Positions 40,017 through 42,736 of a DNA stretch of 64,000 bases are shown piece by piece; position 1 is the first letter of the stretch, and every line of letters starts with the position of its first letter. This DNA is from Escherichia coli (GTDB taxonomy: Bacteria > Pseudomonadota > Gammaproteobacteria > Enterobacterales > Enterobacteriaceae), in the NCBI RefSeq assembly GCF_011045215.1, contig NZ_CP049201.1, one strand, 5' to 3'. Made by a program: the position numbers and the translations under genes. The notes under the pieces were generated by a model, which was not told the origin of the DNA, did no database searches, and saw nothing but the letters and a program-made list of their open reading frames with translations.

Positions 40017-40445
40017 TCAGCCTTTACCCGTGAACGGGTCATCCAGCTTATCCAGACGTCTTTCTGCGTTGCGCAACACGTCCTGTGCTCCCGGGGTGGA
40101 TGCATATGCCTCCAGTTCAGCAGCAAGAGCCTGTTCCATTTCTGTTGCTGTCATGGCAGCAACATCGGCCGCAGAGCGGTTGTCGCGAATAATGAGGTAG
40201 CTGTGCAGGATATTAAGTGGTGCCACATTTTTATTGATGTTTTTCAGCCCCTGCTGAACCGCCAGCCAGTCGCCCAGCCACTGCAGGCGATACAGTTTGT
40301 GACGGTTGTAAGTTTCATTCGTTGTGTTACAGGCCATACGCCAGAACTCCTCAGACATGTTGATGAGCGTATTTTCACCTTCCGGCAGACTGAACGCAGC
40401 GAAGTCATCAATGCCGGACGGCAGTTGTTGATGATTTGTATTCAT
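40017..40445 (-). CDS. Hypothetical protein, member of a three-copy paralogous family (N-terminus MNTNHQQLPSGID)
   Basis: 142-aa ORF with aagga Shine-Dalgarno 8 nt upstream of ATG; its N-terminal codons lie inside repeat R1. Confidence 0.45.
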   Translation of the reverse strand: MNTNHQQLPSGIDDFAAFSLPEGENTLINMSEEFWRMACNTTNETYNRHKLYRLQWLGDWLAVQQGLKNINKNVAPLNILHSYLIIRDNRSAADVAAMTATEMEQALAAELEAYASTPGAQDVLRNAERRLDKLDDPFTGKG

Positions 40446-40617
40446 GTTTTTTCCTTACTAAGTCAGAGTGTTATGAATATAAAGATGCTGTCCGTACCTT
40501 CTGACCGGGGTCGCCAAACTTGCCGGTCTGAAAACGTACAGACAGTTACCGGGATTTTACTCCCGACAGCTGTACGTCCGGCACCCTTTTTTCTTTTTTT
40601 ACATAGTCCGGTTTCTG
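40408..40617. repeat. Copy R1 of a ~210-bp island-specific repeat with a long imperfect palindrome
   Basis: Near-identical to 41414-41621 and 42530-42736; core arms ctgtccgtac (40488-40497) and gtacagacag (40546-40555) around ccgg-rich spacer; ends ~50 nt before the ATG at 40668. Confidence 0.85.
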
Positions 40618-40667
40618 GCCCTGTGGGTCGGTATACCTGTTCCCGTTAAATGAGAAGGAGTGGAATC

Positions 40668-41165
40668 ATGAACCGTAATCCGTCTGAAAATCTGTCTGAA
40701 AACGCGTCCCGCCAGTTCCTGTCCCTGGCCTCGCCAGCAGAGGCTGCATGCCATGCACTGCTTCGTTTCATTGAACGTGAGATTCTTGAGAAAAATGCGC
40801 CTGAAGAGCAGGTCCGGGAACGTTGCAGGGTATTCACCACACTGCTTAATGAGGGATTTACTGCCCTGTCTGATAAGGCTGGGCAGAATTTAGCTGACCT
40901 CCGGGAACAGTGCCGGCAACTGGAGCATCACATCACCAGACTTGGAGATGAATGCAACGATGTTAATCGCAGAAGCGCAGAGATTACCCGCAACATCAAT
41001 CGGGCTTTCGATATGAACATAGCGCTTGATATTGCCAGTCGGTCATATAATTCAACGCCTTCTGGCTCGTCCAGTACTCACTCCAGTAGTCCGTCAGAGC
41101 AAGAGATATCTCAGCAGGTGTCATCTGCTCAACCGTTGCCGGGAGCCAGTGATGCTGATGAATAA
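40668..41165 (+). CDS. Hypothetical island protein (165 aa, predicted coiled-coil, Ser-rich acidic C-terminus)
   Basis: ATG 40668 preceded by gagaaggag 7 nt upstream, directly downstream of repeat R1. Confidence 0.55.
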   Translation: MNRNPSENLSENASRQFLSLASPAEAACHALLRFIEREILEKNAPEEQVRERCRVFTTLLNEGFTALSDKAGQNLADLREQCRQLEHHITRLGDECNDVNRRSAEITRNINRAFDMNIALDIASRSYNSTPSGSSSTHSSSPSEQEISQQVSSAQPLPGASDADE

Positions 41166-41349
41166 GCGCAAACTTAACGGCTTCCGGAATGCTGATGAAG
41201 CCATCATCCCGGAAAAACCAGTGGCGGCTGTGAATCAGCCAGTGTCTGAGCCAGCAGAGTCGGTAGGCGAGCTTATGGTCTGCGCCGGGAAAGATTTCAG
41301 TTCCCTGGTCAAAGAAGGTTTTACAACGTTCCACATCGTCGGGGGCCAT
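40996..41349 (-). CDS. Hypothetical protein, second member of the paralogous family; start uncertain
   Basis: The frame is open up to 41447, where the family start codon reads ATA instead of ATG (NTEKQLPSGID follows); first in-frame ATG gives 117 aa; conserved YRLxWLxxWL motif shared with the 40017-40445 protein. Confidence 0.35.
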   Translation of the reverse strand: MAPDDVERCKTFFDQGTEIFPGADHKLAYRLCWLRHWLIHSRHWFFRDDGFISIPEAVKFALIHQHHWLPATVEQMTPAEISLALTDYWSEYWTSQKALNYMTDWQYQALCSYRKPD

Positions 41350-41413
41350 GCGTCCGGCTTTCCAGTCTTCAAAGTATTTTTCATTGCTGTCAGTGACATA
41401 AGGACAGTTGTTA

Positions 41414-41621
41414 TCAATGCCGGACGGCAGTTGTTTTTCTGTATTTATAAAAATTCTCCTTTAAAACAATCTGTTATGAGTATGCGAATGCTGTCCGTAC
41501 CTTCTGACCGGGGTTGCCAGACTTGCCGGTCTGAAAACGTACAGACAGTTACCGGGATTTTATTCCCGACAGCTGTACGTCCGGCACCCTTTTTCCTTTT
41601 TTTACACAGCCAGGTTTCCGG
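41414..41621. repeat. Copy R2 of the ~210-bp repeat
   Basis: Aligns with R1 and R3 over its length with scattered substitutions; ends ~55 nt before ATG 41676. Confidence 0.85.
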
Positions 41622-41675
41622 TTATCTGCGGGGAAGTGACGCACCTGGCGGGCTGAGAGATATGGAGGTGAAAGT

Positions 41676-42413
41676 ATGTCTTCCTCAGTGAAATATTCTC
41701 CGGTTCCGGCGGTCTTAACCCGCCCTGAATCGCTGGCTGAACTGAACCTGCTGATGACCCGGATTGCCAGTGGGTGTCGTGTGGGGCTTCCGGCGTCAGG
41801 TCGTCCGGTCATTGCGGTGCACGGTGGTTATGTTTCATACAGTTCTCCACGCACCGGACATGTTTTTCAGGACGGTTTCCGCCCGGAGACAGTGATGACC
41901 GTCAGTAACCGGGAACGGATGTGTGAATGGTTCAGTCAGGTCTGGCTTCCGTTGCATCTGGCTGCCCTTGAAGGCGATGAGAACGCTTTTTTCAGTGCGG
42001 AGGTCAACATGGTGCGCCGGGAGCTGCAGCGCGTTCCGGGGGATTCAGTGAACTGCATGTGCTGGGCAAGCCTTGCTGCACTGGCATTTGATGCTGAAGA
42101 GCGGGTGGAACGGCAGAAAGGCAATAATGAGAACATCGCAACATATGATGAGAGCATCGCGACATATGCATTCCGTGCTGCCTGCACTGTGAGTCGCTGT
42201 CTGAGCCGGAATGCTTCCGGAGGTATTCCGCGCTCATACCCTGAATGGAAAGCGATTTTGTTTCCCCGTGATGGTGCTGACATTTTCCCCGACGGGTGGC
42301 TGGAAAATATGACCCGTCGGGCTGAACGTGTTTTTACGAGTGCGAAACGTCAGTGTGGAATGCTCTCAGCCAGTCAGGCAGCGCTTTTTTCTCAACGTGT
42401 TGAAACGGAGTAA
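41676..42413 (+). CDS. Hypothetical island protein (245 aa)
   Basis: ATG preceded by ggaggtg; directly downstream of repeat R2; no recognisable domain. Confidence 0.55.
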   Translation: MSSSVKYSPVPAVLTRPESLAELNLLMTRIASGCRVGLPASGRPVIAVHGGYVSYSSPRTGHVFQDGFRPETVMTVSNRERMCEWFSQVWLPLHLAALEGDENAFFSAEVNMVRRELQRVPGDSVNCMCWASLAALAFDAEERVERQKGNNENIATYDESIATYAFRAACTVSRCLSRNASGGIPRSYPEWKAILFPRDGADIFPDGWLENMTRRAERVFTSAKRQCGMLSASQAALFSQRVETE

Positions 42414-42564
42414 AAGGATGAGCCGATTCAATACAGTTCGGGGGAAAGGGGTTACAGAGCCCGTCTTTTTCCGTCATGACCTTTCCGTTACTCAACAGCC
42501 AGAACTGCAGGGGGTATTTCACTTCAGATTCAATGCCGGACGGCAGTTGTTTTTCTGTATTCAT
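42334..42564 (-). CDS. Hypothetical small protein, third member of the paralogous family (76 aa, MNTEKQLPSGIE)
   Basis: ATG with aagga SD; N-terminus inside repeat R3; overlaps the 3' end of the 41676-42413 gene on the opposite strand. Confidence 0.35.
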   Translation of the reverse strand: MNTEKQLPSGIESEVKYPLQFWLLSNGKVMTEKDGLCNPFPPNCIESAHPFTPFQHVEKKALPDWLRAFHTDVSHS

Positions 42565-42736
42565 AAATTTTTTCCTTTAAAACAACTTGTTATGAATGAA
42601 CGAATGCTGTCCGTATCTTCTGACCGGGGGCGGCAAACTCACCGGTCTGAAAACGTACGGACAGTTACCGGGATTTTATTCCCGACAACTGTACGTCCGG
42701 CACCCTTTTTCCTTTTTTCACATAGCCAGGTTTCCG
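42530..42736. repeat. Copy R3 of the ~210-bp repeat (palindrome arms perfect in this copy)
   Basis: Arms ctgtccgtat...gtacggacag; ends ~25 nt before the dnaB-like ATG at 42761. Confidence 0.85.

What the first reader, a model, noticed from the sequence alone, without database searches (positions are those of the whole stretch)
40408..42736. A ~210-bp element repeated three times, each copy just upstream of a plus-strand operon (two hypothetical genes and dnaB-parB)
Copies R1 (40408-40617), R2 (41414-41621) and R3 (42530-42736) align over their whole length. Each ends 25-55 nt before a strong Shine-Dalgarno and ATG (40668, 41676, 42761). Each contains a long imperfect palindrome: arms ctgtccgtac...gtac(a/g)gacag flank a ccgg-rich centre and could form a ~19-bp hairpin. 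The C-A mismatch in R1 and R2 is a perfect C-G pair in R3. It does not resemble REP, ERIC or other enterobacterial repeat families I can recall. The arrangement suggests a shared operator for an island-encoded regulator controlling replication and partition genes, or a structured 5' leader or small RNA. I could not identify a matching described system.
Basis: partly seen in the sequence, partly recalled or inferred. Interest (0 to 1): 0.85.

Follow-up and report, generated by a model that had tools for sequence, protein, structure and literature searches.

The report
Structured switch region of ICE antisense-gene modules
The three repeats are copies of a conserved, previously undescribed folded region in a mobile genomic island, where a small backwards-facing gene starts on one strand while an unannotated "relay" reading frame on the other strand appears to carry ribosomes across it to the next forward gene, including the island's DNA helicase.

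Summary
In detail: three copies (40407-40587, 41413-41590, 42529-42706, plus about 45 nt of conserved right flank) lie in an SPI-7-type integrative conjugative element between parA and dnaB.

Across 19 distinct copies from E. coli, Proteus, Edwardsiella, Serratia, Pantoea and metagenomes, 19 pairs show compensatory changes. Shuffled controls give 9.8±1.9.

Wobble asymmetry (G·T versus A·C: 38:2 in P1, 22:0 in P2) puts the fold on the plus strand.

Each copy also holds, on the minus strand, a -10-like hexamer, the Shine-Dalgarno sequence (SD), the ATG and the first 11 codons of a small alpha-helical gene.

On the plus strand, all 20 copies tested keep one frame open. This unannotated relay ORF starts at the stop codon of the preceding plus gene. 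It runs antisense through the minus gene, which avoids TTA/CTA/TCA codons. It ends at the start codon of the next plus gene.

It is therefore not an operator, a MITE or a known RNA family. My best reading is a plus-sense RNA gate inside a translationally coupled parA→dnaB chain, doubling as the control region of the antisense gene. A single-stranded-DNA role remains possible. The function is untested.

The parts
40407..40587 (+). Copy R1 of the four-way junction. P1 40412-40428 / 40566-40583; P2 40439-40445 / 40473-40479; P3 40487-40546; P4 40550-40565.
   Evidence: Covariance-model hit of 179.5 bits. Helices mapped from alignment A6 and the sequence.
41413..41590 (+). Copy R2. P1 41418-41434 / 41569-41586; P2 41442-41448 / 41476-41482; P3 41490-41549; P4 41553-41568.
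   Evidence: Covariance-model hit of 171 bits. Same register as R3, offset 1116.
42529..42706 (+). Copy R3.
   Evidence: Covariance-model hit of 174.1 bits. Folds of the single strand give z = -5.1.
40017..40445 (-). Minus-strand gene G1 (142 aa, all-alpha). Its SD lies in the P2 loop, its ATG (40443-40445) in the P2 5' arm, and codons 4-10 in the P1 5' arm.
   Evidence: ORF list. Synonymous changes dominate in this frame. AlphaFold model has pLDDT 76.6, with the N-terminal 13 residues disordered. Annotated as a hypothetical protein in the related strain RM11911.
40996..41448 (-). Minus-strand gene G2, a paralogue of a different subtype. Its start codon is mutated to ATA (41446-41448), but the frame stays continuous with the 117-aa ORF 40996-41349.
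   Evidence: alignment A4.
42334..42564 (-). Remnant minus ORF G3' (76 aa). Only the first roughly 12 codons are homologous. It overlaps the 3' end of the 245-aa plus gene.
42673..42678 (-). -10-like hexamer TAAAAT at the apex of P4, read on the minus strand. The same hexamer lies at 41557-41562 (R2) and 40554-40559 (R1). It is the candidate promoter of the minus genes. The T-rich tract right of P1 reads as an A-tract, UP-like, on the minus strand.
   Evidence: TAnnnT is present in the P4 loop on the minus strand in 16 of 19 copies and in none on the plus strand. The background rate is 0.17 per 18-nt window. The promoter function is inferred.
39939..40649 (+). Relay ORF X1 (unannotated). Its ATG overlaps the TGA of the preceding small plus gene (ATGA). 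It runs antisense through G1 and through R1. Its stop TAA (40647-40649) abuts the ATG at 40650 and lies 21 nt before the SD-led ATG at 40668.
41158..41691 (+). Relay ORF X2. Its ATG at 41158 (or 41152) overlaps the TAA of the 165-aa gene (ATGAATAA). It crosses G2 (antisense) and R2. Its stop lies 13 nt inside the 245-aa gene.
42418..42768 (+). Relay ORF X3. Its ATG lies 7 nt after the first base of the TAA stop of the 245-aa gene. It crosses G3' and R3. Its stop TGA overlaps codons 2-3 of dnaB (ATGGCTGA), the same junction that parA and dnaB have in islands without the module.
42703..42719 (+). Pyrimidine tract CCCTTTTTCCTTTTTTC directly after P1 (R1: 40584-40606; R2: 41587-41603). It is predicted to pair with the purine-rich SD of the next plus gene.
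   Evidence: The SD is predicted paired with probability 0.89 (R1) and 0.92 (R3), but only 0.43 in R2. See also the fold.
40668..41165 (+). Plus gene of 165 aa after R1. No family match.
41676..42413 (+). Plus gene of 245 aa after R2. No family match.
42761..45804 (+). dnaB-PI (42761-44128) and parB (44125-45804), after R3.

Best explanation
Each repeat is the conserved core of an 'antisense-gene module' inserted one to three times between parA and dnaB of an SPI-7-type integrative conjugative element.

The same roughly 220 bp does three jobs:
- On the minus strand it is the control region of a small alpha-helical protein gene. It holds a -10-like hexamer in the P4 loop, an A-tract upstream, a 5' UTR that begins with hairpin P3, then the SD, the ATG and the first 11 codons.
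- On the plus strand it is the last roughly 75 codons of a translated but not protein-constrained relay ORF. This ORF starts in start/stop overlap with the preceding plus gene. It runs antisense through the minus gene and stops on the start codon of the next plus gene.
- The plus-sense transcript of this stretch folds into a four-way junction (P1-P4).

Proposed mechanism (inferred). The island's parA→dnaB genes form a translationally coupled chain. The relay ORF keeps ribosomes moving across the inserted counter-oriented gene. This would prevent polarity and would open the masked SD of the next gene when the ribosome terminates there. The folded junction would act as a gate on that ribosome traffic. 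Because it covers the minus gene's promoter, SD and ATG in antisense, plus-strand expression and minus-gene expression would be mutually antagonistic.

The three copies in this window arose by accretion of modules from different island lineages at the conserved element.
For: Shown:
- Structure. 89.6% of cells are paired. 19 pairs have changes on both sides, against 9.8±1.9 in shuffles (0 of 500 reach the observed value). Slid controls give 32-45% paired. Earlier alignments agree.
- Strand. G·T versus A·C cells are P1 38:2, P2 22:0, P4 14:8 and P3 34:32. With RNA energy parameters the plus strand is more stable in 17 of 19 copies, with means of -69.9 and -61.1 kcal/mol. P2 is stable as RNA (-8.3) but marginal as DNA (-3.1).
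- Plus frame. One and the same plus frame is open through all 20 copies tested. It ends 1 or 5 nt after the first base of the next gene's start codon in 15 of 17 cases; the other two end at -21 and +13.
- Relay start. The frame has an ATG or GTG at -1, -5, +2 or +7 of the preceding gene's stop codon in 14 of 15 contexts.
- Indels. All internal indels and all length differences (169, 172, 178, 181, 184 nt) are multiples of 3.
- Codon avoidance. Nine of the twelve minus-gene sequences examined, including all nine of the G1 subtype, have no TTA, CTA or TCA among 10-19 Leu and 5-10 Ser codons. Those three codons would be stops on the other strand.
- Which frame is protein-constrained. The minus frame carries the synonymous changes (for example 11 synonymous and 6 non-synonymous in one pair, against 1 and 16 in the plus frame). 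So the minus gene is the protein-constrained one and the relay ORF is only kept open.
- Ancestral junction. In islands without the module, the parA stop overlaps the dnaB start in the same ATGnnTGA arrangement.
- No plus promoter. Only about 45-60 nt separate P1 from the dnaB ATG, and no consensus promoter is found there.
- Persistence. The element persists intact where the minus gene is deleted.
- -10-like hexamer. TAnnnT sits in the P4 loop on the minus strand in 16 of 19 copies.
- SD masking. The SD of the next plus gene is predicted paired with probability 0.43-0.92 across the 11 copies tested, highest in R1, R3, MS1494 and SCU204.
Against: - Nothing here shows transcription, translation or structure in vivo. 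The promoters are predictions.
- A very stable junction (about -70 kcal/mol as RNA) inside a translated ORF is unusual, and its role as a 'gate' is conjecture.
- Terminator-like hairpins on the plus strand at 39875-39890 and 42449-42462 could limit read-through.
- The second Serratia copy is followed by the 3' end of the minus gene and not by a plus gene start.
- The set of copies comes from perhaps 8-10 independent lineages, so the counts are not independent events.
- With DNA energy parameters the strand asymmetry nearly disappears (12 of 19 copies), so the fold could equally exist in plus-strand ssDNA.
Confidence: 0.45

Rival explanations
1. The fold acts in single-stranded DNA. The plus strand would be the strand displaced by relaxase-driven rolling-circle replication and transferred by conjugation. 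The junction would be a single-strand initiation site (sso/ssi) and/or an ssDNA promoter. It would prime complementary-strand synthesis and give entry-specific ('zygotic') expression of the minus gene, for which the plus strand is the template.
For: - The structure is strand-specific and always has the same orientation in the island.
- It is kept where the minus gene is lost.
- No double-stranded consensus promoter is found for the minus genes.
- The minus genes are among the few genes oriented against the backbone.
- In the circular form, traI-int-attP-parA places the modules 2-4 kb from the relaxase gene.
- This island family replicates from oriT with TraI (PMC6561031). Single-strand origins are known in ICEBs1 and Tn916 (PMC5812530).
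- Multi-copy Frpo/ssi elements upstream of leading-region genes are known in plasmids (PMC11541004).
- STAXI, which Rfam matches on the same strand, lies in the same island.
Against: - Which strand is transferred is unknown, and so is the position of oriT.
- No -35/-10 pair with proper spacing is presented on any arm.
- There is no similarity to any plasmid sequence, Frpo and ssi included. There is no CS-6 motif.
- P2 is only marginally stable as DNA (mean -3.1 kcal/mol, several copies weaker than -2), yet it shows the clearest selection for pairing.
- The open relay frame, the 3n indels and the start/stop overlaps show selection acting on the plus-sense mRNA of the same stretch.
- Islands of other genera lack the element within the roughly 4 kb fetched on each side of dnaB.
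Confidence: 0.2
2. The structure matters mainly in the minus-strand mRNA. It would be a long 5' UTR whose closing helix pairs the far 5' end with codons 4-10, and whose second hairpin holds the start codon, controlling translation of the small protein.
For: - The SD, the ATG and the first codons lie inside P2 and P1.
- P3 tolerates changes that are wobble pairs on the minus strand.
- The predicted -10 in the P4 loop would start the minus mRNA just before P3.
Against: - P1 and P2 favour the plus strand in 19 of 19 and 18 of 19 copies by energy, and 60:2 by wobble type.
- A transcript starting at the predicted site would not contain the P1 3' arm or P4.
- The element is retained without the minus gene.
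Confidence: 0.1
3. It is a double-stranded operator: the palindrome, and the inverted repeats 150 bp apart, bind an island regulator that controls divergent promoters.
For: - It sits in an intergenic position between divergent genes.
- The imperfect palindrome P3 has a sequence-conserved centre (GGTCGCCAAAC), and the P1 arms are conserved.
Against: - Four helices covary, including a 5-bp stem whose sequence differs completely between lineages.
- The strong G·T over A·C asymmetry has no meaning in duplex DNA.
- The indels follow a coding frame.
Confidence: 0.05
4. It is a MITE or IS remnant whose terminal inverted repeats are the P1 arms.
For: 17-bp inverted repeats flank a roughly 150-bp body, and there are several copies.
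Against: - No target-site duplication: the longest word shared between the flanks is 2-4 nt and it does not abut the arms.
- It is never found outside the parA-dnaB interval of this island family, and always in one orientation.
- It is absent from the plasmid and phage collections.
- The internal helices covary.
- It contains a gene start and an open frame.
Confidence: 0.02

Closest known systems
Translational coupling through masked ribosome-binding sites (trp, gal and atp operons; MS2 coat-replicase)
   Same: Stop/start overlaps (ATGA, ATGnnTGA, TAATG) occur at both ends of the relay ORF. The next gene's SD is predicted to sit in a local hairpin that a terminating ribosome would open.
   Different: The upstream partner here is an ORF kept open without constraint on its protein. 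It lies antisense to a real gene for about 430 nt and contains a covarying four-way junction. I know of no described case of this (my own knowledge, not tested).
Cis-antisense RNA control regions with repeated copies (Sib/Ibs 'QUAD' repeats, SymR/symE, FinP/traJ, hok/sok)
   Same: A structured RNA is exactly complementary to the SD and start codon of a gene on the other strand. The repeat units each carry one gene start and one antisense fold.
   Different: There is no conserved promoter for a separate small RNA. The antisense strand is a translated part of an operon mRNA. The target is a 130-160-aa soluble-looking protein and not a short toxic peptide.
Frpo/ssi single-stranded DNA promoters of plasmid leading regions
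   Same: Several homologous, strand-specific, strongly folded elements of about 200-300 nt lie in a conjugative element next to genes that would be templated by the folding strand (PMC11541004).
   Different: There is no sequence similarity. The element is not one long hairpin, and it shows no -35/-10 mimic. The gene start lies inside the fold. The transferred strand is unknown.
Single-strand origins (sso) of rolling-circle plasmids, ICEBs1 and Tn916
   Same: It is an orientation-specific, structured element in an element that replicates from oriT (PMC5812530, PMC6561031).
   Different: It overlaps coding sequence on both strands. It has no CS-6. No sso has been described for this island family.
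STAXI RNA motif (RF01728)
   Same: It is a structured element of integrative conjugative elements and lies in the same island on the same strand.
   Different: It is a different structure and sequence. cmscan gives no STAXI or other family hit at the repeats, even at E up to 5.

Membership tests
Any Rfam 15 family | Match to a curated covariance model | tested here: not met
   At the gathering threshold the window gives only STnc630, STAXI and naRNA4, all elsewhere. At E up to 5 on 40300-42800 there are only two chance-level hits, mraW at 18.6 bits and SNORA73 at 13.2 bits.
Frpo/ssi ssDNA promoter | Sequence homology to known Frpo/ssi of F-like, IncI and other plasmids | tested here: not met
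   blastn with word size 11 against 72,556 plasmid records gives no match.
Frpo/ssi ssDNA promoter | A hairpin arm presenting -35 and -10 hexamers with 16-18 nt spacing | tested here: not met
   The consensus scan finds none on either strand. A relaxed scan of nine copies finds no motif conserved in position.
Frpo/ssi ssDNA promoter | Lies in the leading region on the transferred strand, which is the template of the adjacent gene | not testable with these tools
   oriT and the transferred strand are unknown. The folding (plus) strand is the template of the minus gene, which is compatible with this feature.
RCR-type single-strand origin (ssoA-like) | Strand-specific extensive secondary structure | tested here: met
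RCR-type single-strand origin (ssoA-like) | CS-6 consensus (TAGCGT/A) in a terminal loop | tested here: not met
   Absent from all 23 copies.
RCR-type single-strand origin (ssoA-like) | Priming of complementary-strand synthesis | not testable with these tools
   Needs an M13-rescue assay or an in-vitro priming assay.
Cis-encoded antisense small RNA | Own conserved promoter on the antisense strand | tested here: not met
   Similarity among copies ends 5 nt upstream of P1. No consensus promoter is found.
Cis-encoded antisense small RNA | Complementarity to the SD and start codon of the target | tested here: met
   Met by position: the P2 loop is the anti-SD and the P2 5' arm is the anti-AUG.
Cis-encoded antisense small RNA | Intrinsic terminator at its 3' end | tested here: inconclusive
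   P1 is followed by CCC plus a T-run in the E. coli and some Serratia copies. This is absent in SCU204, M19, Sure_2 and L099. The terminator scan does not call it.
MITE / IS remnant (ERIC, REP, Correia-like) | Target-site duplication abutting terminal inverted repeats | tested here: not met
MITE / IS remnant (ERIC, REP, Correia-like) | Dispersed copies at unrelated loci | tested here: not met
   138 of 5426 E. coli genomes carry it and none of the places is on a plasmid. In every one of the 18 contexts inspected it lies in the parA-dnaB interval of this island type. There is none in the plasmid or phage collections.
Palindromic operator (dsDNA protein site) | Conservation of sequence and not of pairing, with symmetry between the strands | tested here: not met
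   19 pairs have compensatory changes. The G·T to A·C ratio is 60:2 in P1 plus P2.
Translationally coupled operon junction | Stop codon of the upstream ORF within a few nt of the downstream start codon, at both ends of the relay ORF | tested here: met
   Downstream end: offset +1 or +5 in 15 of 17. Upstream end: -1, -5, +2 or +7 in 14 of 15.
Translationally coupled operon junction | Actual dependence of downstream translation on upstream translation | not testable with these tools
   Needs stop-codon insertion and reporter assays.

The most novel reading that the evidence does not exclude
An inserted, counter-oriented gene is bridged by a translated 'relay' ORF. The ORF's only selected property is to stay open. 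It is kept open by codon avoidance in the embedded antisense gene, by indels in multiples of 3, and by start/stop overlaps at both ends. A covarying four-way-junction RNA within it gates the relay, and the same stretch is the promoter, 5' UTR and start of the antisense gene. Together these would form a compact bidirectional switch setting expression of an ICE's replication and partition genes (dnaB-parB) against an unknown small protein. Alternatively, the same fold could be the first single-strand origin or ssDNA promoter of a Gram-negative MOBH-type ICE.
Probability: 0.35. Interest if true: 0.85.

Novelty: new variant of a known kind. Interest (0 to 1): 0.66.

Why it matters
SPI-7/ICEclc-type islands spread virulence and catabolic genes, yet how their replication and partition module (parA-dnaB-parB) is controlled in enterobacteria is largely unknown.

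This locus offers four things:
- A well-supported, unannotated structured element that could seed a new RNA family.
- An unannotated class of relay ORFs that annotation pipelines miss because the opposite strand holds the protein-constrained gene.
- A rare, clean example of sequence selected on both strands at once: protein on one strand, open frame plus RNA fold on the other.
- A small conserved protein family of unknown function that always travels with the element.

All of these lead to simple experiments. The finding also shows how modules accrete at a conserved structured sequence, which explains the variable copy number.

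Tried and rejected
- Rfam at gathering and permissive thresholds gave nothing at the repeats.
- Pfam, NCBIfam, PHROGs and PADLOC on the minus proteins and the two plus proteins gave only chance-level hits. These were DUF4007/SspB at E 0.04 and 0.005.
- A profile search of 1.8 billion representatives found only 37 clusters, which gave four more divergent loci.
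- The genome-contig scan with DnaB-PI brought mostly chromosomal DnaB or islands without the element.
- The degenerate metagenome pattern was too loose. Only 5 of the 80 loci checked with the model were true copies, all close to E. coli.
- I searched for a sigma-70 mimic on hairpin arms, coaxial stacks and the flanks, and for a plus promoter between P1 and dnaB. Nothing was conserved. The recurrent TTTACA after P1 would place a transcription start inside the SD.
- RNAalifold without G·U pairs gave too sparse a structure to be useful.
- A literature search did not yield the oriT position or the transferred strand for this island family.
- The P1 plus T-run was considered as a terminator and set aside, because the T-run is missing in several lineages and reads as an A-tract upstream of the minus -10.
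- oriT was considered and rejected. Relatives with the same relaxase family lack the element near dnaB, and no second copy lies near traI.

Full report
**Where the finding lies**

The window is an E. coli chromosome. cadC is at 36137-37675. At 38292-38342 there is a 51-nt copy of the 3' half of tRNA-Phe, which marks the left end of an island.

From parA (38422-39315) onward the genes match an SPI-7-type integrative conjugative element: dnaB-PI, ParB, DUF2786, DUF2857, an STY4528-family replication protein, topoisomerase III, SSB and type IV secretion genes. In a 97.6%-identical relative the element ends with a TraI-domain relaxase, an integrase and tRNA-Phe. Nearly all of its genes are on the plus strand.

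The repeat finder gives one family of three 223-nt copies at 40411, 41414 and 42530, with 75-88% identity. They align end to end. A covariance model built later finds just these three places in the 64 kb, at 171-180 bits.

The left end of each copy reads, on the minus strand, as SD, 7-9 nt, ATG, then MNT(N/E)xQLPSGI(D/E). This is the start of the ORFs 40017-40445 (142 aa), 40996-41448 (start mutated to ATA) and 42334-42564 (a 76-aa remnant).

In related islands of E. coli, Proteus, Edwardsiella, Serratia and Pantoea, and in four metagenomic contigs, the usual layout is parA, then one such minus gene, then one copy of the element, then dnaB. Sometimes an extra plus gene sits before dnaB, once a D12 adenine methyltransferase.

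In most other genera dnaB follows parA directly, with the parA stop overlapping the dnaB start as ATGnnTGA. The element and the minus gene are therefore an inserted module. The window carries three such modules, with minus genes of two different subtypes. This points to accretion by recombination at the conserved element.

**Structure**

Either strand of R3 folds far better than shuffled sequence (z = -5.1 and -5.2). The fold has four helices:
- P1 is a closing helix of 17 bp, whose 5' arm is codons 4-10 of the minus ORF.
- P2 is an AT-rich hairpin. Its 5' arm contains the CAT of the start codon and its loop contains TTCCTT.
- P4 is a 5-bp hairpin.

On 19 distinct copies with a hand-set register, 89.6% of cells are standard pairs. 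Nineteen pairs have changes on both sides, against 9.8±1.9 in shuffles (0 of 500). With the 3' partners slid by 1-3 columns, only 32-45% pair. Two earlier alignments gave the same picture. All four helices contain double changes.

An alternative helix that extends P4, at the expense of the base of P3 and the inner part of P1, is also mostly paired.

**Which strand folds**

I counted cells with the register fixed and mismatch positions included. G·T cells (a wobble on the plus strand) against A·C cells (a wobble on the minus strand) are:

| Helix | G·T | A·C |
|---|---|---|
| P1 | 38 | 2 |
| P2 | 22 | 0 |
| P4 | 14 | 8 |
| P3 | 34 | 32 |

By energy, P1 favours the plus strand in 19 of 19 copies and P2 in 18 of 19, while P3 is neutral. 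With RNA parameters the whole element is more stable on the plus strand in 17 of 19 copies (mean -69.9 against -61.1 kcal/mol). With DNA parameters it is 12 of 19. P2 is a sound helix as RNA (mean -8.3) and marginal as DNA (mean -3.1).

So P1, P2 and probably P4 are selected on the plus strand, and P3 on both.

**Minus-strand signals**

The P4 loop reads TAnnnT on the minus strand in 16 of 19 copies and never on the plus strand. The background rate is 0.17, and the stem around the loop covaries.

A start about 7 nt downstream would put hairpin P3 at the very 5' end of the minus mRNA. That would explain why P3 also tolerates minus-strand wobbles. The T-rich tract right of P1 reads as an A-tract upstream of this hexamer. 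This promoter is an inference. The consensus scan finds no sigma-70 promoter on either strand in 39900-43000.

**The plus strand is a reading frame**

In all 20 copies examined, the same plus frame is open through the whole element and for 70-770 nt upstream. Its codons are the exact reverse complements of the minus codons.

Its stop lies 1 or 5 nt after the first base of the next plus gene's start codon in 15 of 17 cases. The other two are at -21 (abutting an alternative ATG) and +13.

At its other end, an in-frame ATG or GTG sits at -1, -5, +2 or +7 of the preceding plus gene's stop codon in 14 of 15 contexts, often behind a good SD.

All internal indels in the alignment, and all length classes (169, 172, 178, 181, 184 nt), differ by multiples of three.

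Nine of the twelve minus-gene sequences examined, including all nine of the G1 subtype, contain no TTA, CTA or TCA among 10-19 Leu and 5-10 Ser codons. These three codons would be stops on the other strand. The two with such codons (G2 and its GF43 homologue) have them near their 3' ends, upstream of where the relay ORF would begin.

Synonymous changes pile up in the minus frame and not in the plus frame. One Serratia pair shows 11 synonymous and 6 non-synonymous changes in the minus frame, against 1 and 16 in the plus frame. Inside the element the plus frame shows no protein-level constraint: 940 synonymous against 3616 non-synonymous differing codon pairs.

The minus gene is therefore the protein-coding one. 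The plus ORFs (X1 39939-40649, X2 41158-41691, X3 42418-42768) are kept open without regard to their product. They are not annotated in RefSeq relatives.

**Reading**

The backbone genes form a chain of translationally coupled ORFs. The ancestral parA/dnaB overlap is preserved at the relay/dnaB junction.

The simplest account is that the relay ORFs carry ribosomes across the inserted antisense gene and the element. This would avoid polarity in about 430 nt of otherwise untranslated RNA and would deliver a terminating ribosome to the next start.

That next start has its SD predicted to be paired (probability 0.43-0.92). In R1 and R3 the partner is the pyrimidine tract that follows P1.

Plus-sense RNA across the element must exist, because there is no room and no signal for a dnaB promoter between P1 and the SD. 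In strains that lost the minus gene, the element is simply an intercistronic stretch between parA (or a small ORF) and the next gene.

I therefore place the four-way junction in the plus-sense mRNA and read it as a gate on the relay. Because it is antisense to the minus gene's promoter, SD and ATG, it would also make the two directions of expression antagonistic. The gate function is conjecture. The structure, the strand, the relay frame and the overlaps are shown.

**Rivals**

The main rival is a single-stranded-DNA role, as a single-strand origin and/or an ssDNA promoter for the minus gene. The plus strand is the template of the minus gene. The family replicates from oriT with TraI (PMC6561031). 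Repeated folded elements next to early genes are known in plasmids (PMC11541004).

Against this rival:
- The transferred strand is unknown.
- There is no -35/-10 mimic, no similarity to any plasmid sequence and no CS-6.
- P2 is weak as DNA.
- The coding-frame signals show selection on the mRNA.

A role only in the minus mRNA conflicts with the wobble asymmetry of P1 and P2. An operator conflicts with the covariation and the asymmetry. A MITE conflicts with the lack of a target-site duplication, the fixed context and the gene starts.

**The minus protein**

It is all-alpha (pLDDT 76.6, pTM 0.72). The N-terminal 13 residues, which the element encodes, are disordered. It has no family match and no informative structural neighbour. 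It belongs to a small family of 37 clusters among 1.8 billion representatives. In every context inspected it lies between parA and dnaB. Its function is unknown.

**Limits**

All functional statements are inferred from sequence. The copies represent perhaps 8-10 independent lineages. The alignments were partly hand-registered. Promoters and terminators are pattern matches. E-values from the shortened model calibration are rough.

Noticed in passing
window 38292-38342 (minus strand): A 51-nt stretch is identical to the 3' half of tRNA-Phe. This is the att repeat that marks the left end of the island, just upstream of parA. PGAP annotates the equivalent stretch as 'tRNA-OTHER' or 'tRNA-Ser' in related islands, while ARAGORN finds no tRNA in the window.
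   Followed up: partly
window 54298-54448 (+): A full-length STAXI RNA motif (RF01728, 135 bits) lies in the same island, between topoisomerase III and the STY4534-family and ssb genes. It is on the same strand as the four-way junction.
   Followed up: no
window 7786-7951 (+) and 2031-2107 (-): The chromosomal small RNAs STnc630 and naRNA4 are detected at their gathering scores.
   Followed up: no
window 39682-39942 (+): A small ORF with a CxxC...CxxC pattern (CVGCG...WVKVN...GLCSxC) lies between parA and the first module. Relatives of this motif sit upstream of dnaB in Erwinia, Serratia and other islands. The relay ORF X1 starts on its stop codon (ATGA).
   Followed up: partly
window 41446-41448 and 42334-42564: The second minus gene has ATA in place of ATG. 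The third is a 76-aa remnant that overlaps the end of the 245-aa plus gene. Yet both repeats are intact, including the SD and the fold.
   Followed up: yes
window 39875-39890 (+) and 42449-42462 (+): Weak terminator-like hairpins followed by T-runs lie on the plus strand shortly before modules 1 and 3. They could limit read-through into the relay ORFs.
   Followed up: no
alignment A6 columns 139-144 with 165-170 (R3: 42661-42666 with 42687-42692): An alternative helix ACAGTT/AACTGT extends P4 and competes with the base of P3 and the inner part of P1. Together with P4 it is 84% paired, with some changes on both sides. This may be a conformational switch.
   Followed up: partly
L085 4474-4648 and L089 4459-4640 (Serratia): A second copy of the element lies downstream of a 224-aa plus gene. 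It faces the 3' end of the minus gene and not a plus gene start. One 293-codon plus frame spans both copies and the antisense gene.
   Followed up: partly
L100 2341-3177: In one metagenomic island, the plus gene that follows the element is a D12-class adenine methyltransferase, a gene type typical of anti-restriction and leading regions.
   Followed up: no
L092 2964-3108 (E. coli FDN-4): A truncated copy (model positions 35-179) lies upstream of dnaB, joined to Mu-like phage genes (gp16, Mor). This is a rearrangement whose breakpoint is inside the element.
   Followed up: no
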